Shown here in pieces: positions 13,863 through 56,204 of a DNA stretch of 64,000 nt (its first letter is position 1; every line of letters starts with the position of its first letter). A program made the translations under genes and the position numbers. Source of the DNA: a virus (Duplodnaviria; Caudoviricetes); IMG/VR virus record IMGVR_UViG_3300031998_000004; one strand, given 5' to 3'. The notes beneath the pieces were generated by a model, which ran no database searches, was not told where the DNA came from, and was given only the letters and a program-made list of their open reading frames with translations.

Positions 13863-13910
13863 GTATTAAATCAACTTTATTGATCGATTCAAACTCTGTT
13901 TGAATTTATA

Positions 13911-15988: not shown

Positions 15989-15996
15989 GTATTTAA

Positions 15997-16597: not shown

Positions 16598-16613
16598 GTA
16601 TTTAATTATCCTA

Positions 16614-17009: not shown

Positions 17010-17377
17010 AATATCATCCAATTTGATTCAACAATATCTACTTCTTTATCACTCCAAAACCCATGTTCTCTACAAGATGGATCTAGCGAGAATCTTATTA
17101 TAACCTTAAACTTATTTCCGCGTTGTTTAATTTCAGTTCGCGTGCTATACACCCCTAAATGCTCCAACTGAGTCTTGTATTGTTTCACCCAAAGAAAAAC
17201 GAGATGGTGATATATATATAATTTTTTAGTGGAAATACTTTGACAAAATTCACGCTCCCCTTTTTCGTGATATACTTGTTGACATAAATCCCACTGTTCC
17301 TTTATCTTACACAAGAACCACTTTTTAATCCTTTCGTTAGGGAGTTCATTTGTTATATTATCGTCAAACACACTCAT
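17006..17377 (-). CDS. MS[ILV]F-tag family hypothetical protein
   Basis: MSVFDDNI. Confidence 0.75.
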   Translation of the reverse strand: MSVFDDNITNELPNERIKKWFLCKIKEQWDLCQQVYHEKGEREFCQSISTKKLYIYHHLVFLWVKQYKTQLEHLGVYSTRTEIKQRGNKFKVIIRFSLDPSCREHGFWSDKEVDIVESNWMIL

Positions 17378-17706
17378 ACTTCAGTTACTACTATAGCTTT
17401 AGTGAGACCTGATAAATGTCCATTACCTCGAGGCCATCGTTCAACATGGAAAGTATAATGTTTACCAGTAATTGTAGTCAACCTCATCATTCCTTTTGTG
17501 ATGTAGTAAGACCACCCGTACAAATCTCCATTACCATTAAAGTTATAACGGATCAGTAAATTATAAAGATCACGACCACAAGAGATTGTGTTGTTGAAGG
17601 TATCCGTAAAACTGAGAGGACGACCGCTGGTATATTCATCCCAAGCGAAGTCAAAAACCCGTTCGGTGATGATCTGAGACGTGATATTATCGCTAAATAT
17701 ACTCAT
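17374..17706 (-). CDS. MS[ILV]F-tag family hypothetical protein
   Basis: MSIFSDNI (start re-assigned). Confidence 0.75.
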   Translation of the reverse strand: MSIFSDNITSQIITERVFDFAWDEYTSGRPLSFTDTFNNTISCGRDLYNLLIRYNFNGNGDLYGWSYYITKGMMRLTTITGKHYTFHVERWPRGNGHLSGLTKAIVVTEV

Positions 17707-17764
17707 GTATATAAATGAATTAAAATTCATTAATTCAAACTCTGTATAAATTTAATTACCAAAT

Positions 17765-19270: not shown

Positions 19271-19483
19271 ATGAATATCCAACCTAAATCTAGATCGGAT
19301 TGTAATAAACACGTAGTTAAACGTGAACATTACAGTAGAAAGAACGGAATTTGGAAACCAAAGAAACCTTTTGAAACTGAACAAGATGCGGTAAGCTGGA
19401 TAAATAAATATAAAATGAGTGGCTATTCGGCATACATCTGTAAGGTGTGTGGCAAGTGGCATATTGGCAAAAAGAAAGTATGA
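19271..19483 (+). CDS. small Zn-ribbon protein
   Basis: YICKVCGKWHIG motif. Confidence 0.6.
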   Translation: MNIQPKSRSDCNKHVVKREHYSRKNGIWKPKKPFETEQDAVSWINKYKMSGYSAYICKVCGKWHIGKKKV

Positions 19484-19806
19484 AACAATTAACCGAAAGT
19501 CTATTTGATAAGGATCTTACAATAAAGAATCTCTCACCCGCAGAGATAGCTAATTTATACAAAGGGTATAAACTTAACAAAACCGATGGTACTAAGGATT
19601 GTTTTGGAACACTATTAAAGAAGGGTGATTTGGTTTTAGTATATCGCAATGCCTCCGGAATGAGTATAGGAGTGTATAATGGATTGTATAAAGAAAATAG
19701 GGGGAGACTTTGCGAAATTTTAATTCCTGATAGTGATTTAACGAGATCTCATGCTTGTTATTGTGATAGTGTATTTAAATTAACTAATATACCAGAAATT
19801 AAATAA
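19480..19806 (+). CDS. MKxLxE-SLFD family protein
   Basis: MKQLTESLFDKDL (start re-assigned, ATGA overlap). Confidence 0.75.
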   Translation: MKQLTESLFDKDLTIKNLSPAEIANLYKGYKLNKTDGTKDCFGTLLKKGDLVLVYRNASGMSIGVYNGLYKENRGRLCEILIPDSDLTRSHACYCDSVFKLTNIPEIK

Positions 19807-25249: not shown

Positions 25250-27103
25250 ATGAGTTCATTCAATCCAATAAAAGAAGATAAAGAAGGAGTAATCGCAAAA
25301 CGAACTATATGGTCTACCCAGTCGGTTAATATGGCACTTCGTGGCCTAGAACAAGGACGTAAGTTGGTCGCTAATCCGTTCTACGAGAACAACACAAAAA
25401 TTCTCAAAGGGGACTTGGTGTTTGAGAGAACTCCTGAGGAGATTGCCGAATGGAAGCATTGTGCAAACGACATCATATATTTTGTAGAGAAGTATTGTAA
25501 GTTGATGACTCCAGAGGGAATTCAAAATATCGTCTTACGAGATTATCAAGAAGCATACTTGCGTCACCTAGAGAAACATAGGTTATCTGTGATGCTCTCT
25601 GCACGACAGGCTGGTAAGACAACGACATCTGCACTGTTTATGTTGCATTATATATGTTTCAACTTTGATAAGAATGCACTCGTGTTGGGTAACAAAAGGA
25701 AGACCGCAATTGAAATACTTGACAAGGCGAAAAAGATATTTATCGAACTCCCGTACTTCTTGAGACCCGGTGTATATAAATGGAACGAAGCTGAGATCGT
25801 TCTAGATAACGGATGTAGACTGATGGCGGAAGCAACCACGATCAACTCGGGTATTTCATTCACGTTCCACTGCGTCCTCGCAGACGAGTTTGGGCACATT
25901 GCTCCAAACATCTTGGATAAGTTCTACGAAAACCTATTTCCTACTATCACTGCTGCAAAGGCACGATTTATGATTACCTCCACACAGAACGGATATAATC
26001 TCTTTTATCGTATATATAAAGCAGCTGAAGCTGGGGAGAATGAATATGCTGCGTTTAAGGTTGACTGGGATCAGATACCTGAATGGAACCCCGATAAGCG
26101 TTGCTGGGAACCGAGAACCGAAGAGTGGCACCGGATGCAGATAGCAAACTACGGCTCTGAAGAAGCCTTCAATCGTCAGTTCGGTACGGACTTTGATGTG
26201 GATGCTAACACATTGATTAATAAGAAGATACTAAAGACCTGTCAACACGATTGTCAAGAATTCATTAATAAAGACATTCCCGGAGTGTCACTAGCCAATC
26301 ATTATTATTGGAGTCCTGACTACGACCCAGTATCACAGCTCAGAAAAGATTATATTATCGCACTCGGAGACCTGGCGGAAGGAGTAGAGAAAGACTATAC
26401 GCATTTTAATATATGTAGGCTTATTGAACCTGACTCCGATAAACTTGAATGTGTGGGGTACTACAGGTCAAATAACGTAGATCGAAAGGATATTGCGAAG
26501 TCTCTTATGGAACTCTGTTCGATTCAATGTGACCAGAACCACACTCTTCTTTCATTCGAGAGAAACACCTACGGAGAACTCTTCCTTAAACACATAGAGG
26601 ACTTCGAAGAGAAAAACACCATTCCTGGATTTGATAAGAGTGTGTTGGTTAAGTTCTTTAATGATAGTGGAACGAGATTTGAATATGGTGTTAGGATTAC
26701 TCGCGGAAACAAATCCAATATGTGTATTCTCTTTAAGGAGGATTTTGAGAAGGGGCGAGTTATAAACAAATCAACAATCTTCTGTTCCGAGCTTTTGAAC
26801 TTCTCCGATCCCGAAGAGAAAGGTGTTTGGAAAGCTGCGTTTGGTCATGACGATGCTGTGATGTCTATGATTCAATATGAAGCGGTAAAGAAGACCCTTC
26901 AGTTTACACTCCTCAAACAGGAATTCGATTCAATGGCCGGGCAAACCGATACAAGTTATAATCCATATTCTAATATATATGATACATTGACTCCTACCTC
27001 AGATGATATTTATGGGAGATTTTTAGAATCGGGGTGTAAAACGTTTGCTGAGTTTGAATCAAAGGAATCAGAGAGACGATTAGGTGGATGTAGATTGATG
27101 TAA
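25250..27103 (+). CDS. terL: terminase large subunit (T4 gp17-like)
   Basis: LRDYQ, Walker A SARQAGKTT, Walker B VLADEF, ITSTQNG, nuclease DLAEG...GHDDAVMS. Confidence 0.93.
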   Translation: MSSFNPIKEDKEGVIAKRTIWSTQSVNMALRGLEQGRKLVANPFYENNTKILKGDLVFERTPEEIAEWKHCANDIIYFVEKYCKLMTPEGIQNIVLRDYQEAYLRHLEKHRLSVMLSARQAGKTTTSALFMLHYICFNFDKNALVLGNKRKTAIEILDKAKKIFIELPYFLRPGVYKWNEAEIVLDNGCRLMAEATTINSGISFTFHCVLADEFGHIAPNILDKFYENLFPTITAAKARFMITSTQNGYNLFYRIYKAAEAGENEYAAFKVDWDQIPEWNPDKRCWEPRTEEWHRMQIANYGSEEAFNRQFGTDFDVDANTLINKKILKTCQHDCQEFINKDIPGVSLANHYYWSPDYDPVSQLRKDYIIALGDLAEGVEKDYTHFNICRLIEPDSDKLECVGYYRSNNVDRKDIAKSLMELCSIQCDQNHTLLSFERNTYGELFLKHIEDFEEKNTIPGFDKSVLVKFFNDSGTRFEYGVRITRGNKSNMCILFKEDFEKGRVINKSTIFCSELLNFSDPEEKGVWKAAFGHDDAVMSMIQYEAVKKTLQFTLLKQEFDSMAGQTDTSYNPYSNIYDTLTPTSDDIYGRFLESGCKTFAEFESKESERRLGGCRLM

Positions 27104-27133
27104 AAAAAAAAGAACCCCGAAGGGTTCTTTTTT
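27103..27133. terminator. bidirectional terminator
   Basis: aaaagaaccc-cgaa-gggttctttt between convergent genes. Confidence 0.8.
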
Positions 27134-27878
27134 AGTCCTGATAAGGAACCGGATCTTTCAATCCGTTCTTCTCAAATGCTTCTAGTCGTTCTGTACAACT
27201 ACCACACTTCCCACAGCTCCTACCTTCAGGGTCCGGATCATAGCATGTGTGGGTATTGGAAAGGAACTCATCACGGTCCTCATCATTCCATCCAAGAGTC
27301 TTCATCGCCTTCAACCCCTCTGCAAGAACTTCCGCTTTATCAATATCAACAAACGGTGCTTCGTAAGCTACTTTGTCTGCGTTCCAATCAGAAATCCTAA
27401 ATGCCTTCTCACATGCCTCACGAGATTCAGGACGACAGTCGGGATAGATAGTATGGTCTCCGGCATGGATACCAAGACTGATGATGACATTCTCTCCACT
27501 CTCTACTGCCCAGTTGATCGCTTTACTAAATACAACTGCACTAAAGAGTACATTCCTAAGGGGAACTACTGTACTCTTCATATTCTCTGCAGCATAGTGT
27601 CCGTGAGGAATATCCTTTCCAGTACTCGCTACAAGTGAACTGGTATTTCCAGAGAATACATCAACCATATTAATAATCTGATGACTGACCGGAAGACCCT
27701 TTGCTCGTAAGAACGCGATGTTTTTGGTAATCTTCTCAAGTTCAATCCTATGTTTCTGACCGTAGTCAAAACTATAACATCTTACTTCCTTGCCTTCTGC
27801 AAGGAGCTTTAGTAAAAGCATGCTGCTATCCAATCCGCCGGAGCAGCTAAGAACGGCCTTCTTTGCAAAATTACTCAT
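27132..27878 (-). CDS. queC: 7-cyano-7-deazaguanine (preQ0) synthase
   Basis: SGGLDS, FDYGQKH, VPLRN, YPDCRPE, CGKCGSCTER. Confidence 0.95.
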   Translation of the reverse strand: MSNFAKKAVLSCSGGLDSSMLLLKLLAEGKEVRCYSFDYGQKHRIELEKITKNIAFLRAKGLPVSHQIINMVDVFSGNTSSLVASTGKDIPHGHYAAENMKSTVVPLRNVLFSAVVFSKAINWAVESGENVIISLGIHAGDHTIYPDCRPESREACEKAFRISDWNADKVAYEAPFVDIDKAEVLAEGLKAMKTLGWNDEDRDEFLSNTHTCYDPDPEGRSCGKCGSCTERLEAFEKNGLKDPVPYQD

Positions 27879-42006: not shown

Positions 42007-43086
42007 TTAACAGTTTTGAATTCCTTTTTTATATGCGGCAGCCGCTGCTGGTGTGATTCGCGAAAGCACAGAATTGATTCTGAACTCCTCGAGATTGTAT
42101 GCATTACAGTAAGACATAGAACTCTTAATTGCAGATTCAATCTGTTCTGTCCTTTCCGCGAGCGTACAATCTACCTGGACGACATCAATAATACCTTCAC
42201 TGTTCTTGAGAGTGGTGTTACCCATGTCTATCTGTGCTCGTTTAGTAGACATACCCCAGTACTCTTTGAATCGAACTGGATTAGATGTGCCTACCTGAGT
42301 GGCGTCACAGAGCACAGGACTAGCACTTTCTTCAACCGAACAAAGGAACCGCCCACACATCACCGCATCCGCGCCCAGCGCAAGTGCCTTGCAGATATCT
42401 TCACTATCACCTATTCCACCATCAGCAATGAGCTTCAGGTAGCGTCTACCATTGAACTCAAAGGTGCTCCTGTAGAAGTGGCTTTCTGCAATGAGAGATG
42501 CCATTGGATAGTGTACACCCGTCTGTGCAGAAGTTGTACATACACTACCACCACCGATCCCAAGACGGACCCAATCAGCAAAGTCGTTATATGCGATGGT
42601 TGTGATAGTTCGTGGGTTAGCTATATTACCAACCATTATCTCGGACCCCGGAGCAATAATATCGAGTCTCTCACGGAGAATCTTGCCTACCGTGATGACA
42701 TCTTCCATATGACCATTGGCCTGGTCAATACAGATTTTAACCGGGCCGAAATTCTTAAAGAATTTAGAAAACTCCGCCAATTCATCAATAAGACGTTTCG
42801 TTTCATGAAGACCGAAAGCAACCCAGGTACCTGTCCTCAAGAGCTCGAGTCTCATACTATAATCAATAGTCCTAGGGTAGATGGCATGAAAGTCTTTATT
42901 AAAAAGATCGAAGTTCTGCTCGTCTACCACACAGTTCATAGGAGAGACAAACACAGGGAGTTTTCCATCGGACATCCTCGCGTTACACTCTTTTGTACGA
43001 GAATGAACCTTTGTCTGTTTTGAAGGAATGATAGCGACCTCACACAGTTCAAGGAGAGGTTCTTGTATGTTTTTGATTATATTCAT
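42007..43086 (-). CDS. IMP dehydrogenase / GMP reductase family
   Basis: DQANGH, GIGGGSVCTT, IADGGI, KALALGADAVMCG, YWGMS. Confidence 0.9.
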   Translation of the reverse strand: MNIIKNIQEPLLELCEVAIIPSKQTKVHSRTKECNARMSDGKLPVFVSPMNCVVDEQNFDLFNKDFHAIYPRTIDYSMRLELLRTGTWVAFGLHETKRLIDELAEFSKFFKNFGPVKICIDQANGHMEDVITVGKILRERLDIIAPGSEIMVGNIANPRTITTIAYNDFADWVRLGIGGGSVCTTSAQTGVHYPMASLIAESHFYRSTFEFNGRRYLKLIADGGIGDSEDICKALALGADAVMCGRFLCSVEESASPVLCDATQVGTSNPVRFKEYWGMSTKRAQIDMGNTTLKNSEGIIDVVQVDCTLAERTEQIESAIKSSMSYCNAYNLEEFRINSVLSRITPAAAAAYKKGIQNC

Positions 43087-46564: not shown

Positions 46565-46635
46565 TTCAAATTCTTTTATTTATACTATAATAATCATAAA
46601 AAAAGACCCTCCTCGAAAGGAAGGTCTTGGGTATG

Positions 46636-46707
46636 AGCCGGAAGTCGGAGTCGAACCAACAACCTACGGTTTACAAAACCGTTGCTCTGCCATTGAGCTA
46701 TTCCGGC
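46636..46707 (-). tRNA. tRNA-Thr(UGU)
   Basis: Cloverleaf; ACGGT-TTTGTAA-ACCGT. Confidence 0.9.
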
Positions 46708-46715
46708 GGGTATTT

Positions 46716-46789
46716 GAGTGAAGTGGAGGAATCAAACCTCCGTCTCCTGCCTTCTCGGCTAGGTGTTCTCTCACTAAACTAATTCCACT
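46716..46789 (-). tRNA. atypical tRNA / pseudo-tRNA, identity unclear
   Basis: Acceptor and T arms present; irregular anticodon arm CCTAGCC-GAGAA-GGCAGG. Confidence 0.45.
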
Positions 46790-47089
46790 GTTACGGTCCT
46801 CTATCGCGGTCCCGTATAAACACATCGTCGGATTTCTACCGAAGGCATTAGCGCGTTTGCCAATTTTCACTTCTTGCAAGTCTCTGCATCAGTATAAGCC
46901 GAATATTCTCATCAGAGATCCGTTATTACAAACTACAATCGCTTCAGTGATTTCGTTCCGGTTTGCCGTCATAGTCGCTGACGGTTTCCTCATTGGCTGT
47001 AGATAGGATAGGATTATGTATTATCCCTATCTCTCACTCCTCAAGACACTGACGTACGGTTCAGCACTCTCTTTAAGTCTCTGTTGTCG

Positions 47090-47123
47090 TGGTAGTCTCC
47101 TGGACTCGAACAGGAGTAGGACC
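47090..47123 (-). ncRNA. tRNA minihelix-like remnant ending in CCA
   Basis: GGTCCTACTCCTG-TTCGAGTC-CAGGAGACTACCA. Confidence 0.4.
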
Positions 47124-47158
47124 ATTCTGCATCTATCTTATACCTTCAAAGAACTAAT

Positions 47159-47189
47159 ATAAAATAACTAAAATCTGAAAGAAATTTAA
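47159..47189 (-). promoter_or_regulatory. putative phage promoter
   Basis: TTAAA-N18-TATTTTAT. Confidence 0.55.
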
Positions 47190-47193
47190 TATG

Positions 47194-47271
47194 TGGTAGT
47201 CCCGGAGAGATTCGAACTCTCACTGAATAGATCCTAAGTCTATTGCCATCTTCCAGTTGGGCTACGGGACC
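47194..47271 (-). tRNA. tRNA-Leu(UAG) with short variable loop
   Basis: ATAGA-CTTAGGA-TCTAT; encoded CCA. Confidence 0.85.
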
Positions 47272-47285
47272 AAGTAAAAAAAAAA

Positions 47286-47404
47286 TCATCACCTGTACCT
47301 ACTCGCTGCACGGCACATCTCCCGGTAACGTCAGTCTCGAGGACCAACGCGTCTTCGATAAAATCCAGGGCTCTTTTGGAACGATCTCTTGAGCTAAAGT
47401 GATG
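47286..47404 (-). ncRNA. enlarged tRNA-like cloverleaf
   Basis: Stems CATCACTT/AGGTGATG, GCTC/GAGC, CCTGG/CCGGG, GTGCC/GGTAC with all loops expanded. Confidence 0.5.
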
Positions 47405-47655
47405 TAAATATCAAGTTTAGTATATACCCTAAACTAAGGTGGAGTCCCTATTAACGGAACCGAGCCGATACCTTGCTCGAAAAATTACAAATGAAGATTT
47501 ATACTCTCAGCCAAATGACTTACGTCATCACCTTATGAAGTTAAAATTCGGGTATTTAGTCAACATTAACTTTACAACATTAACTTTACAACATTATTCA
47601 AATAAATACTTTATGACTATCCCTTAATTGGTCCACTACATAAGATGTAAAAGAA

Positions 47656-47781
47656 AAAGAGCGAAAAGTAATGACGTTGGTCAGGCGGGGATTCGAACCC
47701 CGGTCTCTTCATCATTAGTGAAGTGTCTTGTCCTCTAGACTACCCGATCGGACTAGCGAATAGGAACTTTATATGCTCTTT
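47656..47781 (-). ncRNA. scaffold RNA copy 1 enclosing a tRNA-like (AAU anticodon) cloverleaf at 47678-47749
   Basis: GCATATAAAGTTCCTATT...TTACTTTTCGC closing stem; CTTCA-CTAATGA-TGAAG arm. Confidence 0.7.
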
Positions 47782-47790
47782 AAAAAAAAA

Positions 47791-47935
47791 ACACTCGCGG
47801 AAAGTAAGCAATATTTCGTCGGCTATGCCATTTGCCTATCTCCCGAGAGTATGAATGATTTTTTGCCGGGAGAGCTGGACTCGAACCAGCATACAACGAA
47901 TCCAGATTAGCAATAGGAACTTTCTATGCAAGTGT
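47791..47935 (-). ncRNA. scaffold RNA copy 2 with circularly permuted tRNA (YrlA-like)
   Basis: Order T arm, acceptor 3' strand, linker, acceptor 5' strand, D arm inside the conserved closing stem. Confidence 0.75.
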
Positions 47936-47940
47936 AAGGT

Positions 47941-48031
47941 ACAAGCGAGAAGTAATACAACTCCGGCTATGTCGGAATTGAAGGAATCGAACCTTCGTTG
48001 ACCATTTTAAATAGGAACTTCTTTTGCTTGT
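47941..48031 (-). ncRNA. scaffold RNA copy 3 with T arm + loop-closed acceptor stem
   Basis: GAAGG-TTCGATT-CCTTC then AATTCCG/CGGAGTT. Confidence 0.7.
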
Positions 48032-48108
48032 TGGTGGGCACGGGTGGATTCGAACCACCGGCTTTCACTTTGTAAGAGTGACGGTCTAAACCACTGGCGT
48101 ACGCGCCC
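48032..48108 (-). tRNA. tRNA-Val(UAC)
   Basis: TCACT-CTTACAA-AGTGA; encoded CCA. Confidence 0.9.
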
Positions 48109-48407
48109 ATAGATGCCGCATTTACGGTAGTGCGGCCAACCCAAGAATCGCTCTTCGAGCGAACCCGTAACCCCTCTCGACAACTTGGTCGACGGGAAAT
48201 ACCCAAACTAACACATGATGTCTCAGTCTCTCGGAAAGGATTTCTTCCGGTACTCTTCCAGTAATACCTCTTTATGATACCATATACGTTCTATATTTGG
48301 ATTAATAACGTTGCTCTACATATACCCATATTACCTCTTGCGGTCCACACCTTGGCATTGTTCCAATCTACCAAGTTCATTCCGTGAATTGTTAGTTGTA
48401 CAAGACG

Positions 48408-48479
48408 TGGACACATGTGGGATTTGCACCCCTCTGTCACATTGCAAATGTGACGTGCTACTATTACACTACATGGCCC
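48408..48479 (-). tRNA. tRNA-Ala(UGC), atypical
   Basis: TCACA-TTTGCAA-TGTGA; G3:U70; variant T loop TGCAAAT. Confidence 0.7.
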
Positions 48480-48766
48480 ATATGAAACACATCTACCACA
48501 GATTGACAGTCACTAGCCTTTATTACTCCAATCTCCTTATTTGTAATGAGACCATTGTTTAACTATTACAGGCATACCTCCCTACCTCGATGTGTTATAA
48601 AAAAAGAACTAATGATACTCACCTCAGCACCAATCTTGGCGTACTTCCCATCGAGTATCTGACCACCTCTCTTTATTAGTTCTTAATTAAGAGCATAATT
48701 GATACTAGTCTCAATTAATTGTTATATTAGAGCGGTATATCACCTCACTCTCTAATATATCTCTTG

Positions 48767-48837
48767 CGGTCCATAGGAGTGCTGCCCTCCTGACCTTGGC
48801 GTGACAAGCCAATAGTTTACTGTTAGCCTAATGGACC
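48767..48837 (-). tRNA. tRNA-Asp(GUC)
   Basis: TTGGC-TTGTCAC-GCCAA; G73; variant T loop. Confidence 0.8.
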
Positions 48838-48844
48838 AATATTG

Positions 48845-48917
48845 CGGCTCGGACAGGGTACGATCCTGTAACCTATTGATTAACAGTCAATTGCGCTACC
48901 AATTGCGCTACCGAGCC
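48845..48917 (-). tRNA. tRNA-Asn(GUU)
   Basis: ATTGA-CTGTTAA-TCAAT; G73. Confidence 0.9.
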
Positions 48918-48929
48918 ATGCTCATATGT

Positions 48930-49658
48930 TTATTTGTAATTTTCTTTTATATATTTTTTCAATTCTTCCGATTTATGTGGTAATCCAAATCTTTTACAAT
49001 AATTTTGTATAGTCATAAAAGAAACACCGTATTTCTTTCTTAAACTATCCATAATATAATTACATTCGGTTAAATCTTCAATCAACTTTTCTTTCGTTAT
49101 TTGAACCTTTAAGTTATTTATTGATTTTTGCACACAACTTTTTGAACAAAATCTTTGTTGTTTATATTTTACTTCAAATTCTTTACCACAGTATTCACAA
49201 TTTTTAATAACATGTTTTCCCCATTTAACACTACTGTGACAAAAATTATCAGTTTGTGAATGACAATTAGGACAAAGCAATTGTAAATTTTCTAATCTAT
49301 TATCACAACGATTTCCATTTATATGATGAAGTTGGAGAGTTATTGGACTATTGTTCCATTCAGTAATACCACAACATTCGCATTTATTTTCTTTATATTT
49401 TAATATTCTCTTTTTTAATTGGCCTGTTCCTATAAAATGATCATGAATGGAAAATAACTCTTCATCCGTGAACATTTTTTTATTAGGATTATATTTTATA
49501 TTTTTATCAAAATGCGAAATATCTATATTATATATAGTTATAAGTTTTTTAATTCTATCATAATTATTATTAGTTGGTCTTAATCCAACTATATTACAAA
49601 CGTTAAATATATTATTACTATTTTTAACGGCTTCTTCTAAAATTTCTTTGTTAATCAT
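48930..49658 (-). CDS. HNH homing endonuclease
   Basis: CECC...LQLHHINGNRCDNRLENLQLLCPNCHSQT. Confidence 0.9.
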   Translation of the reverse strand: MINKEILEEAVKNSNNIFNVCNIVGLRPTNNNYDRIKKLITIYNIDISHFDKNIKYNPNKKMFTDEELFSIHDHFIGTGQLKKRILKYKENKCECCGITEWNNSPITLQLHHINGNRCDNRLENLQLLCPNCHSQTDNFCHSSVKWGKHVIKNCEYCGKEFEVKYKQQRFCSKSCVQKSINNLKVQITKEKLIEDLTECNYIMDSLRKKYGVSFMTIQNYCKRFGLPHKSEELKKYIKENYK

Positions 49659-49721
49659 ATTCTAACCCTCAACTTTATATAAAAATAATAAAGTGTGGGT
49701 TAGAATTTATTTAATAATTTG

Positions 49722-49792
49722 TTGCGGTACCTGGACTCGAACCCGGAAGCTCTCCTTCAAAGGGAGGCATGTTACCATTACATCATACCGCA
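49722..49792 (-). tRNA. tRNA-Gln(UUG)
   Basis: CTCC-CTTTGAA-GGAG; U1-A72. Confidence 0.85.
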
Positions 49793-49798
49793 ATTCTG

Positions 49799-50409
49799 TG
49801 ACCCCAGGGGGACTCGAACCCACCGACCCCAACATTCTTACCACTATAGCTTTCGCTACCAATTATCCTCTGTTTCTGCTTTTACTTTTGCCTATTCAGT
49901 TGCCTTTGTTTCCCTTTTCAGCATATCTCAAGAAACATGTTTCCGAGTAATTGTTTGTGGTCTGGACTCTATCTTAACCATATTGAAATCTTGCAAGTAA
50001 TTATCTCTTCTTATAGCTACAATGATTAGTGTGGTTTCAGCTCCACCGATTTGATAACATTTCAACTTAGGTTCCTCCTGTATAGTCTCTACACACTGTC
50101 TAAGATTTAACTACCCTTCATATAGTCGTTATCTTGGGTAAGTGGTCTTACGATTCCACTACATCTTTAACATTGGCTCGGTATTGGCATATATGGACTG
50201 TCTTCTTCCGTCTGGACTCTAAAGCGATGCTTCTGTGTTACCACCAGCATTAACCAGGAGTGGTTTGTTATTTAGACGATTGTCCGCAACAATGCTCCGT
50301 ACATCCATACTTAGCTTTTGCCGAATTAGGGAGGATTTTCAATGTATCTTTCAACACAAAGTTCCAATTTTTCAAAAGTGTTGTGCTCTACCAACTGAGC
50401 TATGAGGTC
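49799..50409 (-). tRNA. tRNA-Lys(UUU) split by a group I intron (exons 50374-50409 and 49799-49836)
   Basis: Joined exons give CAACA-CTTTTAA-TGTTG and a full cloverleaf. Confidence 0.88.
49837..50373 (-). mobile_element. group I self-splicing intron (537 nt, no ORF seen)
   Basis: Core-like AATTCGGCAAAA, AATACCGAG, GTAGAGACTATA, AAGATAGAGTCC; follows exon U, ends in G. Confidence 0.88.
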
Positions 50410-50434
50410 CTTCCATTTTTCTATGAGTTATTTG

Positions 50435-50593
50435 TAGCATATCTTGGAGTCGAACCAAGTATTTCCAGGGTAATCTTCCTGGCGAGCTTTGTGTCCGGTA
50501 GACCTTTATCCTAACAGAAAGAATTTATTTGCACTTCAACTCAATCCTGGATGTGGTTTCCACTTCTGTGTGTCTCCGACACTCTCATATGCC
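50435..50593 (-). ncRNA. tRNA-like RNA with ~90-nt D-arm insertion
   Basis: Acceptor GGCATAT/ATATGCT, canonical T arm, CCAGG-AAGATTAC-CCTGG arm. Confidence 0.6.
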
Positions 50594-50668
50594 GACAAGT
50601 CAGTGTGTATGCATCACCTCCTGAACTTGTGAAACAGGTTTATATGTATGACAACTTCGCCTGTTTTG

Positions 50669-50745
50669 TCGGGGTGGAGGGATTTGAACCCCCGTGCAAC
50701 CAGCTACGGTTTCGACAAGGTATAAGCTTGAGCCGATACACCCCG
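50669..50745 (-). ncRNA. D-arm-less tRNA-like RNA (UAU loop, long variable region)
   Basis: CGGGGTG/CACCCCG; CAAG-CTTATAC-CTTG; T arm present. Confidence 0.6.
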
Positions 50746-50751
50746 AATGTG

Positions 50752-50827
50752 CTGGGATGAGAGGACTCGAACCTCCAACCGTCGACTTAACGGGCCGCTG
50801 CTCTCAACCAATTAAAGCTACATCCCA
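50752..50827 (-). tRNA. tRNA-Asn(GUU), C33 variant
   Basis: CGGC-CCGTTAA-GTCG; G73. Confidence 0.8.
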
Positions 50828-50833
50828 ATATAG

Positions 50834-50960
50834 TGAATATGGTCGGATTCGAACCAACATAGCCTGTTACTTCTCATCACCTCCCTTTAACATCGTCATG
50901 AAAGGTTCAAACGGAATATAGATTTTCTCCAGTAGCACATCCAATCTGCTTCACATATTC
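50834..50960 (-). ncRNA. tRNA-like RNA with ~60-nt anticodon-arm insertion
   Basis: GAATATG/CATATTC, D arm, canonical T arm GTTGG-TTCGAAT-CCGAC. Confidence 0.6.
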
Positions 50961-50961
50961 G

Positions 50962-51039
50962 CGGCCCATAAGGGAGTCGAACCCTTCTTCTTACATACGC
51001 TGACGACGTAGTTCCACCTCACGGGTGGCCTAATGAGCC
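50962..51039 (-). tRNA. atypical tRNA-Asp(GUC), C33 variant
   Basis: GGCTCAT/ATGGGCC-G73; TACG-TCGTCAG-CGTA; unusual D hairpin. Confidence 0.55.
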
Positions 51040-51133
51040 ATTATTATAGACCGGGACTTACATTGTGCTACTCATGACTAACACCAACTATCTATTGATA
51101 GTGTCGGATTCAAACCGTACTCCTAACGCCAAG

Positions 51134-51206
51134 TAGACCCGGGGAGACTCGAACTCCCATCACCCTGTTTAAGAGACAGGTGCATCAACCATTCTGCCAC
51201 GAGTCC
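51134..51206 (-). tRNA. tRNA-Lys(CUU)
   Basis: CCTGT-CTCTTAA-ACAGG. Confidence 0.9.
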
Positions 51207-51292
51207 ATAGAATGCTCATCTAACCTTTAATTCAACTTTTACAACCAATTACCGGATGAGCCTGCAAGTTTTAGTCAACTATTCCTAGAAAG

Positions 51293-51370
51293 TGGTACTC
51301 CCAGAAGGACTCAAACCTTCAACCTTGTCCTTAGGACGGACCTGCTCTCGTTCAATTGAGCTATGGGAGC
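51293..51370 (-). tRNA. tRNA-Arg(CCU)
   Basis: GTCC-GTCCTAA-GGAC; encoded CCA. Confidence 0.85.
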
Positions 51371-51377
51371 AAATGTT

Positions 51378-51444
51378 AAATCGCGAGAAGTAATAGTCAA
51401 AATAACTAGTTGTGTTTTCTTAATAGGAACTTCTTATGCAATTT
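51378..51444 (-). ncRNA. scaffold RNA copy 4 (no tRNA cargo)
   Basis: GCATAAGAAGTTCCTATT...TTACTTCTCGC around a short hairpin. Confidence 0.65.
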
Positions 51445-51450
51445 CAATGT

Positions 51451-51690
51451 TTATTCAGCTTTCTCGTCTTTCTTGGTCTTCTTGGGGAAGAGTTTCTTAT
51501 AGAGAGTGTAGAATCCGAATCCCTCTACAGCAAGGTTAGCACCAGCAACCCAACCATAGAAACTACCAATAGCACCAAGTGCAACTGCGTTCCATACTCC
51601 TGCTGCAGCGATCAATGCCGCGAAGCAAGCAAGTCCGAAACCAGCAACTTTTGCAAACTGAATCAATGTTTCTTTATTACTATCTGTCAT
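51451..51690 (-). CDS. small membrane protein inside tRNA region
   Basis: Two hydrophobic helices, basic tail. Confidence 0.7.
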   Translation of the reverse strand: MTDSNKETLIQFAKVAGFGLACFAALIAAAGVWNAVALGAIGSFYGWVAGANLAVEGFGFYTLYKKLFPKKTKKDEKAE

Positions 51691-51726
51691 AATCGATTAT
51701 GTTTATTTATGAGATTGAGAATCTCG

Positions 51727-51809
51727 TGGGCAGGGAGGGATTCGAACCCCCGAAGGCGTCAGCCAACAGATTTACAGTCTGCCCGTTTTGACCACTTACC
51801 TACCTACCC
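51727..51809 (-). tRNA. tRNA-Tyr(GUA)
   Basis: GCAGA-CTGTAAA-TCTGT; long variable arm. Confidence 0.92.
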
Positions 51810-51958
51810 AAAATCGAATATCAAACTAACTTTCCTTATTTTGATGTATAGTCACCTCAAAGGGTCCTCCTCAGAGACCGATCCAATGTCGGATTTCACT
51901 ATATACTTTCCGTGTTGCGTCTGCCACCTTATTTGATATTCTTAATCTAAATTAATTA

Positions 51959-53062
51959 TTACTTTTTACTCTTTTGAAATCTCCCTAATTTCCATCCCTT
52001 GGATAAATATTCTTCTACTAATTCGATTTTAATGAATGTATTAATTTCATCTTTATTTACCCATCTCATATTTTTTCGTAAATTAGACATTTTTTTATTT
52101 TTCCAATGTCTTCCTTTATTTACCCCAACCAATTCGCCAGATAAATATTTTGGGTCATTTTTATCAATCATATATGTATTTCCATTAATATCTTTCACAG
52201 ATATTTTTCCATTTATGGTTTTTCGTTTTGGTCTAAATAATTCACCCGATAAATATCTTGGATCATTGGTTGATACAAAATATTTGTTTCCCTCTTTATC
52301 AACCGCAGATATTTTCCCTTTATTATAAGGGACTAATTCACCCGATAAATATTTTGGATCATTGGTTGATACAAAAAATGAATTGTTATTATTATCTACA
52401 ACTTTCACTTTACCCTTAAAATAATTTGGTTGGGGGCTTTGTAACTTTTTTGTTCCATATATATATTTATCTGTTTTTCCTCTTTTGAACCCCAAATTTA
52501 AATAATGATTAAGATCGTCTTTATAAATAAATCTTATATCATTATTTTTATGAATCCAACATCTATCACGATTTGATTCCAATATTTTTTCTTTATTAAA
52601 ATGAACCTTTCTGCCTTTAATCCATCCATTAACCAGATATTTTTCTAATTCTCCTTTTTTGATAGATTTCGAAGTATCGTCTTTATATACCCAACACTTT
52701 CCGAATTGAGAATTTTTCTCTCCCTTTTGACTATCCTTATTTGATTTACTAAGTTTTTGTAAATCATTTTCTGTTAAGAAATACCCACCAATGGATAAAT
52801 TATAGCAATTTGGATTGTTAATCAATTCTTCATTAACTATTTCTTTTTCGAGATTTGATAATTCTTCAAGCGAATTACAAAATTGAACAATTTCTTTTGT
52901 AAAATTTTCTATACCATATTTTACATATGCATCTTGAAGCCTTTTTCCAGACCCCATATATCCATCATTCAAATTATTTGTAGAATGAATCCCATAATAA
53001 AAATGTCCATTAATATTATTTGTTATTTTATATAAATAGTAATATTTTTTGTTAAAATCCAT
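51959..53062 (-). CDS. GIY-YIG (Seg-like) homing endonuclease
   Basis: YLYKITN...YYGIHST...YMGSG; three NDPxYLSGEL repeats. Confidence 0.9.
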   Translation of the reverse strand: MDFNKKYYYLYKITNNINGHFYYGIHSTNNLNDGYMGSGKRLQDAYVKYGIENFTKEIVQFCNSLEELSNLEKEIVNEELINNPNCYNLSIGGYFLTENDLQKLSKSNKDSQKGEKNSQFGKCWVYKDDTSKSIKKGELEKYLVNGWIKGRKVHFNKEKILESNRDRCWIHKNNDIRFIYKDDLNHYLNLGFKRGKTDKYIYGTKKLQSPQPNYFKGKVKVVDNNNNSFFVSTNDPKYLSGELVPYNKGKISAVDKEGNKYFVSTNDPRYLSGELFRPKRKTINGKISVKDINGNTYMIDKNDPKYLSGELVGVNKGRHWKNKKMSNLRKNMRWVNKDEINTFIKIELVEEYLSKGWKLGRFQKSKK

Positions 53063-53141
53063 AATCCTAAAATTGTTTTGTGGGTATTTAACTAAATAAT
53101 AATAAAATAATTACAATTAATTTAACAAATAATTAAATGTG

Positions 53142-53224
53142 TGGTCCTGGGGGGAGTTGCACCCCCACACCCATATGAGTAAGGGTTTTTAAGACCCTTG
53201 TGTCTACTATTCCACCACAAGACC
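53142..53224 (-). tRNA. tRNA-Leu(UAA)
   Basis: AGGGT-CTTAAAA-ACCCT; long variable arm. Confidence 0.88.
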
Positions 53225-53271
53225 ATTAAATTGTTATCTCAAATAATATGAGTTAACTCATTGATTATTAG

Positions 53272-53345
53272 TCTGGTAGGAGAGATTCGAACTCCCGAAA
53301 TCTTGGTCCCAAACCAAGCCCCTTAGACCGCTCGGACACTACCAG
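53272..53345 (-). tRNA. tRNA-Pro(UGG)
   Basis: CTTGG-TTTGGGA-CCAAG. Confidence 0.88.
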
Positions 53346-53502
53346 ATAGAGTAAAAAGAAGAATAATTCTTTCCAAGTCAACGCGTGTACATCGAATGAT
53401 CATCAGATCCCTCTTTATCTGAATTGCAGCCGCAGTATAAATGCGGTTCGGAAGGAGAATCATTCCGATTCTTTATCCAACCTATATTGCGAGGATTCTT
53501 CT

Positions 53503-54426
53503 TTATTTTTCATATAATGAAATAAAATCCTTTCCATATTTGTTTTTAACATAATCTATATATGGTTTAATTTCATTTTCATCAATTATCTTAATATTGT
53601 TTTCTTTACAACATTTTTCTTTTTCGACCCAACTCCTATCCTTGAATCCTTTAATTTCAACCAATTGATTTTCATTGATAATAAAATCTGGGGTGTATGT
53701 ATGTGTTGTTCCATTATATTTATAATTAAAACGAACTTTACATCGTTTAATTGGGATATCATGTTCAATACAATATACTAAATAAGCCAATTCCCACGAA
53801 CTGTCACAATGAATACCATTATAATATCCCATAATTCCTTTGCACGGAATTTTTCCTTCTTCTCTTAATTTAGACATCGAAATGCTTAATTTTAATCTGG
53901 ATTGTTTTGTGTCGTTTTTTTTATCATCCCAAAAAGAAATTAATTCACCCGATTCAAATTTTTCTCTAATTGTATTAGTTGATTTATCATAAATTTTCTT
54001 TATATATTCTTGAGAAAAATTATCCCAGCCAGCCATTGTATGATTTAATTCATGCGGTCTCTTTTTTATTTCAGTTCCAAGACAATTATGATGATATTTA
54101 CAATGAGATAAATGAGCATTAAGAGATTGAGGATTATCAAATTCTCTTCCACATTCACATTTGTATAAATTTTCTGATATTTTATATTTTGATTGTTTGT
54201 GTTCAAAATGATAATCTTTGCAATGACCATGATGACTCCTTAAAGAATTATAAGTCTTAAATTTTCTATGACAACATTCGCATTCAAATTCAAAATCACC
54301 ATATTCTTTTATCTCTTGTAGTTTTTTATTTTTTCGTTCTTCCAAAATCCCCGGACATTTATGCGCGTTATACGCATTAATGCTCTTAAATTCTCGCCCA
54401 CAATATTTACATATTATCTTATTCAT
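53503..54426 (-). CDS. Zn-finger + PD-(D/E)xK (TnsA-like) putative homing endonuclease
   Basis: Three C2H2-like fingers; DSSWE...YTPDFII...VEIKG; AT-rich. Confidence 0.75.
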   Translation of the reverse strand: MNKIICKYCGREFKSINAYNAHKCPGILEERKNKKLQEIKEYGDFEFECECCHRKFKTYNSLRSHHGHCKDYHFEHKQSKYKISENLYKCECGREFDNPQSLNAHLSHCKYHHNCLGTEIKKRPHELNHTMAGWDNFSQEYIKKIYDKSTNTIREKFESGELISFWDDKKNDTKQSRLKLSISMSKLREEGKIPCKGIMGYYNGIHCDSSWELAYLVYCIEHDIPIKRCKVRFNYKYNGTTHTYTPDFIINENQLVEIKGFKDRSWVEKEKCCKENNIKIIDENEIKPYIDYVKNKYGKDFISLYEK

Positions 54427-54472
54427 AATTAAATAATAAAGCAAATTTGGAGAATTTGGTAGACTATAGCTG

Positions 54473-54557
54473 TAGGGAAGGTGGGACTCGAACCCACATG
54501 GGACCTGCCCACTGGTTCCTTAGACCAGCCTGTATACCAAAATTCCAGCACTTCCCC
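54473..54557 (-). tRNA. tRNA-Leu(AAG)
   Basis: CTGGT-CTAAGGA-ACCAG; long variable arm; A73. Confidence 0.85.
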
Positions 54558-54566
54558 GACTTTTTG

Positions 54567-54641
54567 TAGCGCTAGCGGAGCTCGAATCCGCAATCTTTAC
54601 CTTGAGAGGGTAATGTCCTCAACCAATTAGACGATAGCGCC
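54567..54641 (-). tRNA. tRNA-Glu(CUC)
   Basis: TTACC-CTCTCAA-GGTAA. Confidence 0.88.
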
Positions 54642-54905
54642 ATACTAAAAAATAACAATCGTCAGACCTCGACCATATATTTAGAATTAAGTCGACATCA
54701 TCTCCATATATCTCCAAGTATCGAACATCAGTTCCTTGTAATCCCGGAAATACTATTACATCTAAAAAATCCCGGGTGGATTTCATTTTTACATAATATT
54801 TATTTTACTCTTACTTTACTCCTGTACATCTTGTTGGTAAAATAAATATTTAATTTGATTTATTAATATTTATTAATACATAATCATTACAAGGACGATT
54901 GTTAA

Positions 54906-54981
54906 TGGTAGCCCGTGGGGGACTTGAACCCACCGCCTCTGCCTTGAAAGGGCAGCGTGTTTGCCACTTCACTAACGGGCC
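54906..54981 (-). tRNA. tRNA-Glu(UUC)
   Basis: CTGCC-CTTTCAA-GGCAG; encoded CCA. Confidence 0.9.
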
Positions 54982-55358
54982 GTATGCGCCGGGTGTTTTT
55001 GACCGAGCCCAGCATCTCGGGACTGAACTGTTAACGCTACAGTCATCCAACGACCTTTCCATAGTCCACTTGCTTTCCCTCCGTTCTCAAACCGAACATC
55101 TCTGGTACTCACCTTCAATAGCTATAACGTGCAGGTCCTGTAACCGTCGTCGAAACGAACCTGATTATAACCAGTAGGTCTTTAGCCGGTTACTATAACC
55201 ACCAGGAGTGCGTTTAAGACCTACAAACACTTACACATCTCTCTGATGAATATACTGTCCAAATATTATAAGATAAGACAATCACAGAACGTATATCAGA
55301 TTCCTTTTGAGTCATGTGCTTTTATTGCGACTCGGTAAGGTTGAATGCATAAACTGCG

Positions 55359-55431
55359 TGGACCTGGGCGGGATCGAACCACCGACGCAAGGATCTTCAG
55401 TCCTTCGCTCTACCAACTGAGCTACAGGTCC
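55359..55431 (-). tRNA. tRNA-Phe(GAA)
   Basis: AAGGA-CTGAAGA-TCCTT. Confidence 0.92.
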
Positions 55432-55676
55432 ATAGAGCCAAGACATTACTGCCCTGGCGAGTACCTCCCCACTGGAGGCACACCCTATAAGGCCTATCCC
55501 TACAAGGATTTCTTTTCAGCTCCTCTCCAAGCAGTCTTCACAGATACCACCCAAAGAGGTTTTTTACTCATATTATATTTCTTTCAGACTTGTCAATGAA
55601 CTAGATATCTACTTGTGCTGAGCGCCAGCCTCGGACGTTTCCTGTTCCTCCTCCACTTTCAATATCTCTTACAGAT

Positions 55677-55707
55677 TATATATACTAAACTCACATCGAA
55701 CATTTAG
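55677..55707 (-). promoter_or_regulatory. putative phage promoter inside tRNA region
   Basis: CTAAA-N18-TATATATA. Confidence 0.6.
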
Positions 55708-55732
55708 TGATTTTCTTATATATTTTCTCTTG

Positions 55733-55805
55733 TGACCCCAGTGAGACTCGAACTCACGATCCACTCTTTAAAGGAGAGTTGCTTTACCAGCTCAGCTATG
55801 AGGTC
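55733..55805 (-). tRNA. tRNA-Lys(UUU), C33 variant
   Basis: ACTCT-CCTTTAA-AGAGT; same acceptor stem as intron-containing Lys. Confidence 0.8.
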
Positions 55806-55892
55806 ATAGTATTTCACTGACCTCATGGTGAGATCAGCACTTAATTATGTTTTCGTTTAATCTGTATCATATCTTCTTTTAATCTTATCTTG

Positions 55893-55969
55893 TATGGTAG
55901 ACGAGACTCGAACTCGCATAAATGTCTGCATCCCAAATGCAGCCGGTGAACCAATTACCGTACTACCAT
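55893..55969 (-). tRNA. tRNA-Pro(UGG), second copy
   Basis: CTGCA-TTTGGGA-TGCAG. Confidence 0.82.
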
Positions 55970-55975: not shown

Positions 55976-56140
55976 ATAAAAAAATCTCAAGTGCTACTTT
56001 TCTTTTGCACCTGAGATTCTCTTTCTCCTAACGTCTTTCTATCACTTCATCATCTCGTACGGTGCATATACTACCTTTCCTCGTCTTTGAGTTGATCAAA
56101 GAGGGCAACGGGTAAATATGCATTATACTTTCTCATGATA
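55976..56140 (-). promoter_or_regulatory. putative leader-peptide transcription attenuator upstream of tRNA region
   Basis: Mutually exclusive 1:2, 2:3 and 3:4 pairings; terminator AATCTCAGGTGC/GCACTTGAGATT + T tract. Confidence 0.7.
56071..56136 (-). CDS. 21-aa leader peptide MRKYNAYLPVALFDQLKDEER
   Basis: ATG 56136 to TAG 56071, overlapping attenuator segments 1 and 2, ~20 bp downstream of a promoter motif. Confidence 0.6.
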   Translation of the reverse strand: MRKYNAYLPVALFDQLKDEER

Positions 56141-56156
56141 GATTTATGTTCTGTAA

Positions 56157-56187
56157 TTAAAATAATAAGGAGTTTCTAAAAATTTAA
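56157..56187 (-). promoter_or_regulatory. putative phage promoter for leader/tRNA transcript
   Basis: TTAAA-N18-TATTTTAA. Confidence 0.6.
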
Positions 56188-56204
56188 CAACGCTACAAAT
56201 TTTT

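What the first reader, a model, noticed from the sequence alone, without database searches (positions are those of the whole stretch)
55976..56187. Leader-peptide attenuator that may switch on phage tRNAs when translation stalls
Seen (minus strand): promoter motif, then a 21-codon ORF MRKYNAYLPVALFDQLKDEER, then a terminator, then the first tRNA. Segment 1 (TGCATATTTACC, codons 5-9) pairs with segment 2 (GGTAGTATATGCA, spanning the stop codon). Segment 2 (TGCACC-gtac-GAGAT) can instead pair with segment 3 (ATCTC-a-GGTGCA). Segments 3:4 form AATCTCAGGTGC/GCACTTGAGATT followed by a T tract. All 12 non-Met amino acids in the leader have a tRNA downstream, including both Lys codons, both Glu codons, AGG, TTA and CAA. 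Gly, Ser, Cys, His and Trp are absent from both the leader and this cluster. Established: this is the trp/his attenuator logic. Inference: rather than sensing one amino acid, the leader samples many codons, so tRNA depletion or anticodon-nuclease attack would stall the ribosome and permit read-through. Caveat: internal promoters (55677, 47159) mean only the first tRNAs (Pro, C33-Lys) may be strictly dependent.
Basis: partly seen in the sequence, partly recalled or inferred. Interest (0 to 1): 0.9.

Follow-up and report, generated by a model that had tools for sequence, protein, structure and literature searches.

The report
Leader-peptide attenuator gating phage tRNA array
A group of uncultured rumen phages keeps, in front of its block of tRNA genes, a tiny translated 'test' gene wired to a switchable transcription stop, so the phage probably makes more tRNA when ribosomes struggle to read those codons; this control is textbook for amino-acid genes, but I found no published account of it for tRNA genes.

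Summary
Confirmed; function inferred, not shown. The cassette (promoter-like motif, 21-codon ORF, competing helices 1:2/2:3/3:4, U-tract) lies where stated. It recurs at the head of the tRNA array in 15 other phage leaders and stays with the array when genes are inserted upstream. The ORF behaves as translated: indels stay in frame, the stop always lies at segment 2, and the variable half has 0 stops in 184 codons (8-21% in other frames). Helices 1:2 and 3:4 covary; 2:3 is kept in all but shows no formal covariation. In masked folding the antiterminator forms only with a ribosome on codons 2-19. The peptide drifts but avoids Gly/Ser/Cys/His/Trp (0/184; 17% off-frame), and no array has canonical tRNAs for these. 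That favours sampling of many codons over an arrest peptide. Weak points: the match holds for amino acids, not codon by codon; a second promoter-like motif follows the terminator within 30 nt in 6 of 16 phages; there are no RNA data; a nuclease trigger is untested. New part: a helix hiding the start region. The scan has noted this design, with other sequences, in other phages; I found no paper on it.

The parts
56158..56190 (-). Promoter-like motif A (TAAA, about 14 nt, then a TTATTAT-type box), directly behind the stop of the upstream 270-aa gene
   Evidence: Kept in all 15 close leaders; the motif class occurs 7 times in the window, all on the minus strand ahead of genes or arrays, against 0.66 expected. 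Function as a promoter is inferred.
56135..56142 (-). Start region: 5' arm of the extra helix P0, with A at -3
   Evidence: A at -3 in 14 of 15 leaders against 39% of the phage's ORFs; pairs with 56045-56038
56071..56136 (-). Leader ORF, 21 codons plus TAG
   Evidence: Conserved, 19-27 aa, in 16 leaders; indels in frame; 0 stops and 0 G/S/C/H/W in 184 variable codons
56111..56128 (-). Segment 1 (codons 3-9), pairs with segment 2 (anti-antiterminator)
   Evidence: P(1:2) 0.82-0.98 in all 15; rewritten with compensating changes in L040
56084..56102 (-). Inner 7-bp hairpin in the ORF (codons 12-18)
   Evidence: 100% of cells paired, one pair with changes on both sides
56052..56075 (-). Segment 2: overlaps the stop codon; pairs with segment 1 or with segment 3
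   Evidence: Core kept in all 16 while the neighbouring linker diverges; 2:3 helix of 10-12 bp, -9.6 to -12.9 kcal/mol
56038..56045 (-). 3' arm of helix P0, closing the 5' rod over the start region
   Evidence: Duplex better than 95% or more of shuffles in 12 of 15 leaders (weaker in L036, absent in L013 and L033), with different sequences in different phages
56018..56051 (-). Purine-rich, unconserved linker (32-48 nt in relatives), probably a timing spacer
   Evidence: Lengths fall evenly in all three frames, purines 61-88%; timer role is inference
56006..56017 (-). Segment 3: 5' arm of the terminator and 3' arm of the antiterminator
   Evidence: Nearly invariant, more so than segment 4, as expected of a doubly paired arm
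55978..55994 (-). Segment 4 and 7-nt U-tract: intrinsic terminator (11-bp core, 12-nt loop)
   Evidence: 99.4% of cells paired, 2 pairs with compensating changes; P(3:4) 0.90-1.00
55732..55969 (-). tRNA-Pro(UGG) and tRNA-Lys(UUU, C33): the only tRNAs between the terminator and the next promoter-like motif
55675..55709 (-). Promoter-like motif B inside the array (probably unattenuated, basal)
   Evidence: found 13-815 nt behind the terminator in relatives
46596..55969 (-). tRNA array (Pro, Lys, Phe, Glu, Leu, Tyr, Arg, Asp, Asn, Gln, Ala, Val, Thr, an Ile-like and several tRNA-like genes, three endonuclease ORFs), closed by a terminator at 46628-46603

Best explanation
A ribosome-coupled transcription attenuator that boosts the phage tRNA array when decoding of the array's own amino acids is slow. 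Shown in sequence and by computation: (1) a conserved translated leader; (2) three mutually exclusive pairings; (3) with no ribosome the 5' part folds into a rod (P0, 1:2, inner hairpin; about -24 to -35 kcal/mol, -50 in L013), segment 2 is locked and the terminator forms; (4) a ribosome on codons 2-19 frees segment 2, which pairs with segment 3 before segment 4 emerges; (5) a ribosome at the stop weakens 2:3, and after release 1:2 refolds. Inferred: normal translation finishes within the time the linker provides, so transcription mostly stops at about 55978. A shortage of any sampled tRNA (cleavage, lack of charging, exhaustion in late infection) holds the ribosome mid-leader, and RNA polymerase reads on into the array. 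P0 then limits re-initiation on finished leaders. Because further promoter-like motifs lie inside the array, the switch most likely adds an inducible boost, including read-through from the long upstream operon, to a basal supply. In this phage only tRNA-Pro and C33 tRNA-Lys depend on it strictly.
For: Conservation at the array head in 16 leaders (median pairwise identity 63% among the 15 close ones), also after insertion of 2.3 and 3.5 kb of genes upstream in L013 and L040. A covariance model built without L040 finds it (50.8 bits, E 5e-7). Translation: ATG invariant; ATG-to-Phe distance always a multiple of 3; linker lengths 5/5/5 over the three frames; 0 of 184 stops in frame against 8% and 21% off-frame; codons 3-9 show 5 synonymous and 0 other changes. 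L010 and L035 lost the first stop, and both end at a stop just behind segment 2, where the ribosome hides it. Structure: 1:2 plus 3:4 is 96% paired, with 9 pairs changed on both sides and 0 of 500 shuffles as high (model-fitted alignment; 3 pairs on plain MAFFT). Masks: P(2:3) is 0.75-0.97 with the ribosome mid-leader (one relative dips) and 0.00-0.13 without it in 11 of 15. Codon set: about 41 parsimony amino-acid changes, none to G/S/C/H/W (28% expected if neutral); no canonical Gly, Ser, Cys, His or Trp tRNA in six arrays; core rearranged in L040 but the same kind of set.
Against: The 2:3 helix is invariant rather than covarying. At equilibrium the terminator wins in nearly all masks, so the switch must be kinetic. 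In L040, L013 and L033 the stop lies 11 or more nt before the core of segment 2, so termination there relies on ribosome release. A promoter-like motif follows the terminator within 13-28 nt in L011, L013, L025, L033, L037 and L040. The match is imperfect: AGA has no cognate tRNA, Thr is never sampled, and L040 has Phe and Arg codons with no such tRNA found in a 69%-complete record. The parsimony changes are not independent, and RNA pairing and an acidic, purine-rich tail also shape codon choice. The whole genome is not held, so further tRNA arrays cannot be excluded.
Confidence: 0.62

Rival explanations
1. The same attenuator, but a general gauge of elongation speed (like the whiB7 uORF under many stresses). 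Any slowing of ribosomes opens it, and the amino-acid set reflects RNA-structure and composition limits rather than matching to the array.
For: No tandem run of one codon; wide stall window of codons 2-19; codons 3-9 and 12-18 are tied up in helices; no codon-by-codon tracking between phages.
Against: The same DNA read off-frame, or shuffled, gives 17-20% G/S/C/H/W against 0% in frame. A-to-G changes giving Gly from Asp/Glu codons would keep pairing with U, yet none is seen. The two readings are not exclusive: a codon sampler also responds to general stalls.
Confidence: 0.17
2. An arrest-peptide attenuator (TnaC/SpeFL/ErmCL type): the conserved N-terminal motif stalls the ribosome in response to a small molecule, or to a lack of EF-P at Leu-Pro.
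For: Residues 3-9 are invariant in 15 leaders, with only synonymous changes and unpaired AA dinucleotides kept; Ala-Tyr and Leu-Pro persist in L040.
Against: L040 changes the order and spacing of the motif while keeping the RNA helix. Most invariant bases are paired, so RNA explains them. Over the whole ORF the synonymous share (27%) is what drift gives.
Confidence: 0.08
3. Mainly the terminator of the long upstream operon, with a weak or constitutive leak set by ribosome loading. The array is really driven by the internal promoters, and the leader is a minor or decaying device.
For: No other terminator lies between the upstream gene and the leader in the window; promoter-like motif B sits right behind the terminator in 6 of 16 phages; the terminator wins at equilibrium.
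Against: A plain terminator needs no conserved ORF, no segment 2 and no invariant 5' arm. The cassette moved with the array, not with the upstream gene, in L013 and L040, and it is intact in all 16, including those with motif B adjacent.
Confidence: 0.08
4. The product is a stand-alone RNA of about 175 nt or a 21-residue peptide with its own job (decoy RNA, type I toxin-like transcript), and the alternative pairing is incidental.
For: A very stable rod plus terminator (z -6.3); the 5' end pairs over the start region as in type I toxin mRNAs; the array holds other structured non-coding RNAs.
Against: The peptide is acidic, not hydrophobic, and drifts; no Rfam match; the 10-12 bp complement of the terminator arm is kept in all 16 across a divergent linker; the position is always at the array head.
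Confidence: 0.05

Closest known systems
Leader-peptide transcription attenuators of enterobacterial amino-acid operons (trpL, hisL, pheL; multivalent ilvGMEDA and thr leaders) (own knowledge; pheL in PMC3082878)
   Same: Short leader ORF overlapping segment 1, stop at segment 2, helices 1:2, 2:3 and 3:4 plus U-tract; a stall opens, finished or absent translation closes; internal basal promoters also occur in trp and his operons (own knowledge).
   Different: Controls tRNA genes, in a phage; no tandem control codons but 12 amino acids in 20 codons; long purine-rich linker and 12-nt terminator loop; no Shine-Dalgarno; no sequence kinship (no Rfam match).
pheM attenuator of E. coli pheST (own knowledge)
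   Same: A leader senses charged tRNA and controls part of the translation machinery.
   Different: One amino acid, a synthetase as output, a cellular operon.
whiB7 uORF attenuator of mycobacteria (bioRxiv 10.1101/2023.06.02.543512)
   Same: Stalling in a uORF gives antitermination; many tRNA, synthetase and amino-acid defects trigger it; uORF composition, not sequence, sets the response.
   Different: Output is a transcription factor; the uORF is enriched for one amino acid (Ala); unrelated sequence.
Anabaena PCC 7120 trn operon (PMC8421152, PMC10272220)
   Same: A long, mobile tRNA array induced when translation is impaired.
   Different: Control is by the repressor TrcR on promoter repeats; attenuation is not mentioned in PMC8421152 (0 hits).
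Phage tRNAs that counter anticodon nucleases: T5 tRNA-Lys against PARIS (PMC11464382), T5-like tRNA-Tyr against retron Eco7 (PMC11555353)
   Same: Lys and Tyr codons lie in the conserved part of the leader, and a Lys(UUU) tRNA with an altered anticodon loop follows it.
   Different: There the tRNA-Tyr is supplied from a strong promoter and no attenuator is described (0 hits); no nuclease link was tested here.

Membership tests
Leader-peptide (ribosome-mediated) transcription attenuator | Short translated ORF upstream of the regulated genes | tested here: met
   Frame, start and stop conserved in 16 leaders; 0 of 184 stops in frame against 8-21% off-frame; translation itself not observed
Leader-peptide (ribosome-mediated) transcription attenuator | Intrinsic terminator (3:4 plus U-tract) before the first regulated gene | tested here: met
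   11-bp core, 99.4% paired, compensating changes, run of 6 or more T
Leader-peptide (ribosome-mediated) transcription attenuator | Antiterminator 2:3 excluding 3:4, and anti-antiterminator 1:2 overlapping the ORF | tested here: met
   2:3 of 10-12 bp in all 15 and present in L040; 96% paired, but no change on both sides; 1:2 covaries
Leader-peptide (ribosome-mediated) transcription attenuator | Ribosome position selects the structure (mid-leader opens; absent or at the stop closes) | tested here: met
   Masked folding on truncated transcripts; a model only, kinetic, with a weaker effect of the stop in L013, L033 and L040
Leader-peptide (ribosome-mediated) transcription attenuator | Tandem control codons for the product of the regulated operon | tested here: not met
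   No run of one codon; instead many amino acids once or twice, all served by the array. This is the variant feature.
Leader-peptide (ribosome-mediated) transcription attenuator | Regulated premature termination in vivo | not testable with these tools
T-box riboswitch | Stem I specifier loop and UGGN antiterminator bulge; Rfam T-box match | tested here: not met
   No Rfam match at E up to 1; the 2:3 bulge is GUAC-like and variable
Arrest-peptide leaders (TnaC, SpeFL, ErmCL type) | Sequence-specific nascent-peptide motif conserved at protein level | tested here: inconclusive
   Residues 3-9 invariant in 15 leaders but mostly base-paired; rearranged in L040
TrcR-repressed tRNA L-array (Anabaena type) | Direct repeats over the -10 box bound by a repressor | tested here: not met
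   No repeat family listed over 56158-56190 (20 largest shown) and none visible in the aligned promoters

The most novel reading that the evidence does not exclude
The leader is a phage sensor of host tRNA-cleaving defence. When an anticodon nuclease removes tRNA-Lys, -Tyr or -Asn, ribosomes stall in codons 3-9 and the phage switches on replacement tRNAs, first the C33 tRNA-Lys that may resist cleavage. This would be an inducible counter-defence loop built from RNA alone.
Probability: 0.3. Interest if true: 0.9.

Novelty: new variant of a known kind. Interest (0 to 1): 0.72.

Why it matters
Why phages carry tRNA genes is a long-open question (codon supply against replacement of tRNAs destroyed by host defence), and how those genes are regulated is hardly described. 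An attenuator whose leader samples the amino acids its tRNAs serve would show that the phage measures decoding capacity and answers it. It also makes the question testable with a 200-nt reporter: whichever condition opens the switch (nuclease attack, starvation, late-infection exhaustion) is the condition the tRNAs are kept for. It extends attenuation from biosynthetic genes to the tRNAs themselves, a direct negative feedback loop, and offers a ready multi-codon sensor for a probable Bacteroidota host.

Tried and rejected
Whole genome not held, and metagenome records behind loci not held, so further tRNA arrays could not be sought; in the one searchable relative (G001, 69% complete) there is one array and two lone tRNAs without a leader. 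Recoded genetic code: rejected, as ORFs tile the window under table 11; the element is not a broken gene read through TAG. Chance pattern hits discarded: L015-L024, L028, L034. No leader in GTDB genomes; the four terminator look-alikes L043-L046 have no leader, segment 2 or tRNA. No cultured phage carries it. One search used mistyped columns and is void (redone). Covariation of 2:3: none on the MAFFT alignment. Tracking of ATA codons with tRNA-Ile(UAU): all arrays have a candidate, so no signal. Overall excess of synonymous change: none. Ten literature searches found no leader-peptide attenuator for tRNA genes; the library lacks most subscription papers. No structure or complex prediction was run: not informative for a 21-residue drifting peptide.

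Full report
Context. The window is part of a large T4-like phage: terminase at 25250-27103, best cultured match Tenacibaculum phage PTm1 at 32%, standard code. Relatives come mostly from ENA and JGI metagenome contigs whose names point to rumen studies (the habitat is my inference from study names). Only 8% of ORFs have a Shine-Dalgarno-like word, which fits a Bacteroidota host, where A at -3 replaces it (PMC7366714); the host is inferred. A 9.4-kb tRNA array runs on the minus strand from 55969 to a terminator at 46628-46603.

The observation. The leader folds far better than shuffles (z -6.3). I corrected two ARAGORN calls from the stem register: 49721 is Gln(UUG) and 55732 is Lys(UUU) with C33. 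All 12 non-Met amino acids of the leader are served by the array, and only 2.8% of 20-residue windows of the phage's proteins lack G, S, C, H and W; 0.6% also hold 12 or more different residues. The codon-level match is looser: AGA has no cognate tRNA, AGG is the last codon, and three codons need wide wobble.

Conservation. Contigs fetched through homologues of the upstream 270-aa protein and a degenerate DNA pattern gave 15 distinct leaders including the window's, median identity 63%. A sixteenth, diverged one lies in an IMG/VR contig whose upstream protein is 41% identical (L040:14337-14480); a covariance model built without it finds it at 50.8 bits. Each one precedes tRNA genes or the array's first conserved elements. 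In L013 and L040, 2.3 and 3.5 kb of other genes separate it from the upstream gene, and it stays with the array. It is absent from GTDB genomes and cultured phages.

Is the ORF read? The ATG is invariant, with A at -3 in 14 of 15. Indels inside the ORF keep the frame, while lengths of the untranslated linker fall 5/5/5 over the three frames. In the variable half, 0 of 184 codons are stops, against 8% and 21% in the other frames. The stop lies 5-11 nt before the core of segment 2; L010 and L035 lost it and both end at a stop just behind segment 2. Codons 3-9 show 5 synonymous and no other changes, though most of these bases also pair. This is good indirect evidence of translation; it was not observed.

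The switch. Without a ribosome all 15 leaders fold into a 5' rod plus terminator (P(1:2) 0.82-0.98, P(3:4) 0.90-1.00). Helices 1:2, the inner hairpin and 3:4 are 96% paired, with 3 pairs changed on both sides on a plain alignment and 9 when L040 is added on a model-fitted one. The 2:3 helix is 10-12 bp and -9.6 to -12.9 kcal/mol in all 15, against -12.5 to -15.0 for the terminator core. It is 96% paired but invariant, so it gives no covariation signal; its support is that a complement of the terminator arm is kept across a linker that has diverged. On transcripts cut before segment 4 has fully emerged, P(2:3) is about 0.75-0.97 with the ribosome's P site on codons 2-19 (one relative dips at single codons), near 0 without a ribosome in most leaders, and falls at the last codons (to 0 in L010 and L035). 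With all of segment 4 out the terminator wins in nearly all cases, so the switch is kinetic. New here: the start region pairs with a stretch just behind segment 2 (helix P0), with different but complementary sequences in 12 of 15 leaders; I infer that it blocks re-initiation on finished leaders.

What is sensed? There is no tandem control codon. About 41 parsimony amino-acid changes stay within D, E, K, N, A, I, V, L, F, Q and R; none gives G, S, C, H or W, where 28% would be expected under drift (changes are not independent). The same DNA off-frame or shuffled gives 17-20%. Six arrays hold no canonical tRNA for these five amino acids. L040 rearranges the conserved core yet keeps the same kind of set and a compensated 1:2 helix, which argues against a fixed arrest peptide. 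Against a tight match: Thr tRNAs are never sampled, L040 has Phe and Arg codons with no such tRNA found, and Ile shows no tracking. So the leader is kept inside the array's repertoire, but it does not mirror each array.

Main weakness. A second promoter-like motif lies 274 nt behind the terminator here, 203-815 nt in five other relatives, and only 13-28 nt in six. The two motifs share a core that occurs 7 times in the window against 0.66 expected. If both are promoters of one class, the attenuator can only add a boost to a basal supply, as with internal promoters of trp and his operons (own knowledge); if they act at different times it could gate the whole array early. I cannot tell which. No RNA data could be had.

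Comparison and novelty. It works like trpL/hisL and meets their structural criteria except for tandem control codons. In logic it is nearest to the whiB7 uORF; in output to the Anabaena trn operon, which uses a repressor. Phage tRNAs that counter anticodon nucleases are described with a strong promoter, not an attenuator. Ten literature searches found no leader-peptide attenuator for tRNA genes. Earlier notes of this scan report the same design with other sequences in other phages; no look-alike of this sequence is on record from another genome. Those notes are unchecked and were not counted as evidence.

Verdict. A real, conserved attenuator-type cassette (about 0.85 that it is a translation-coupled switch; 0.62 that it samples the supply of the array's tRNAs; 0.3 that host nucleases are the trigger). 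New variant of a known kind; interest 0.72.

Noticed in passing
window 50409-49797 (-); L011 about 11862-12452; L040 about 16330-17020: tRNA-Lys(UUU) is split just after the anticodon by a 537-nt insert ending in G, with words typical of group IC3 introns (from memory); Rfam missed it. Relatives carry a similar insert in tRNA-Leu(UAA).
   Followed up: partly
L009:16253-16404, 17100-17251, 17331-17483; L040:15265-15420, 19340-19499; L011:14277-14429; L013:18687-18836: Short inserts of about 77-85 nt inside the anticodon loops of Lys, Asn, Asp, Pro and Val tRNAs, several starting with a shared ACAG word and holding a T-loop-like hairpin; too short for group I introns.
   Followed up: partly
window about 51430, 48015, 47915, 47765 (-): A repeated 11-nt hairpin-loop word (family D11), twice inside frames with a tRNA-like acceptor stem and T-arm but no normal D or anticodon arm.
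   Followed up: no
window 47678-47749 and 46717-46788 (-); L031:9150-9222; L011:14521-14591 and 16206-16277; L009:17576-17647 and 18563-18635: tRNA-like genes with good acceptor and T arms but anticodon arms that differ freely between phages; probably decoys or non-decoding RNAs, miscalled Ile, Ser or Leu by ARAGORN.
   Followed up: partly
window about 55664-55432 (-); L011, L025, L040:15100-15260: Conserved structured non-coding stretch behind promoter-like motif B and ahead of tRNA-Phe, ending in a GNRA-capped hairpin; no Rfam match.
   Followed up: no
window 54472-54557 (-): tRNA-Leu with anticodon AAG (A34, probably inosine), kept in most relatives and replaced by Leu(GAG) in L040; it would read the leader's CTC codons, which are rare in phage genes (18% of Leu).
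   Followed up: partly
window 53503-54444, 51959-53062, 48930-49658 (-): Three endonuclease ORFs inside the tRNA array; the HNH gene's start sits in a 33-nt inverted repeat that holds a promoter-like motif (49648-49717), recalling T4 homing-endonuclease control.
   Followed up: no
L031:4612-4700; L030:2514-2602; L006:11529-11618: An 89-nt tRNA-Phe(GAA) with a long insertion in the D arm, beside a normal tRNA-Phe; absent from the window.
   Followed up: no
window 4748-17730 (-) and 434-4502 (+): Two large families of small paralogous ORFs sharing only an N-terminal motif (M-S-I/L-F-D/S-x-x-I and M-K-T-L-x-E-S-L-F-D).
   Followed up: no
window 27132-27878 and 42007-43086 (-): A QueC-like gene (by its N-terminal motif, from memory) and an IMPDH/GMP-reductase-family gene, hinting at 7-deazaguanine chemistry for DNA or tRNA.
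   Followed up: no
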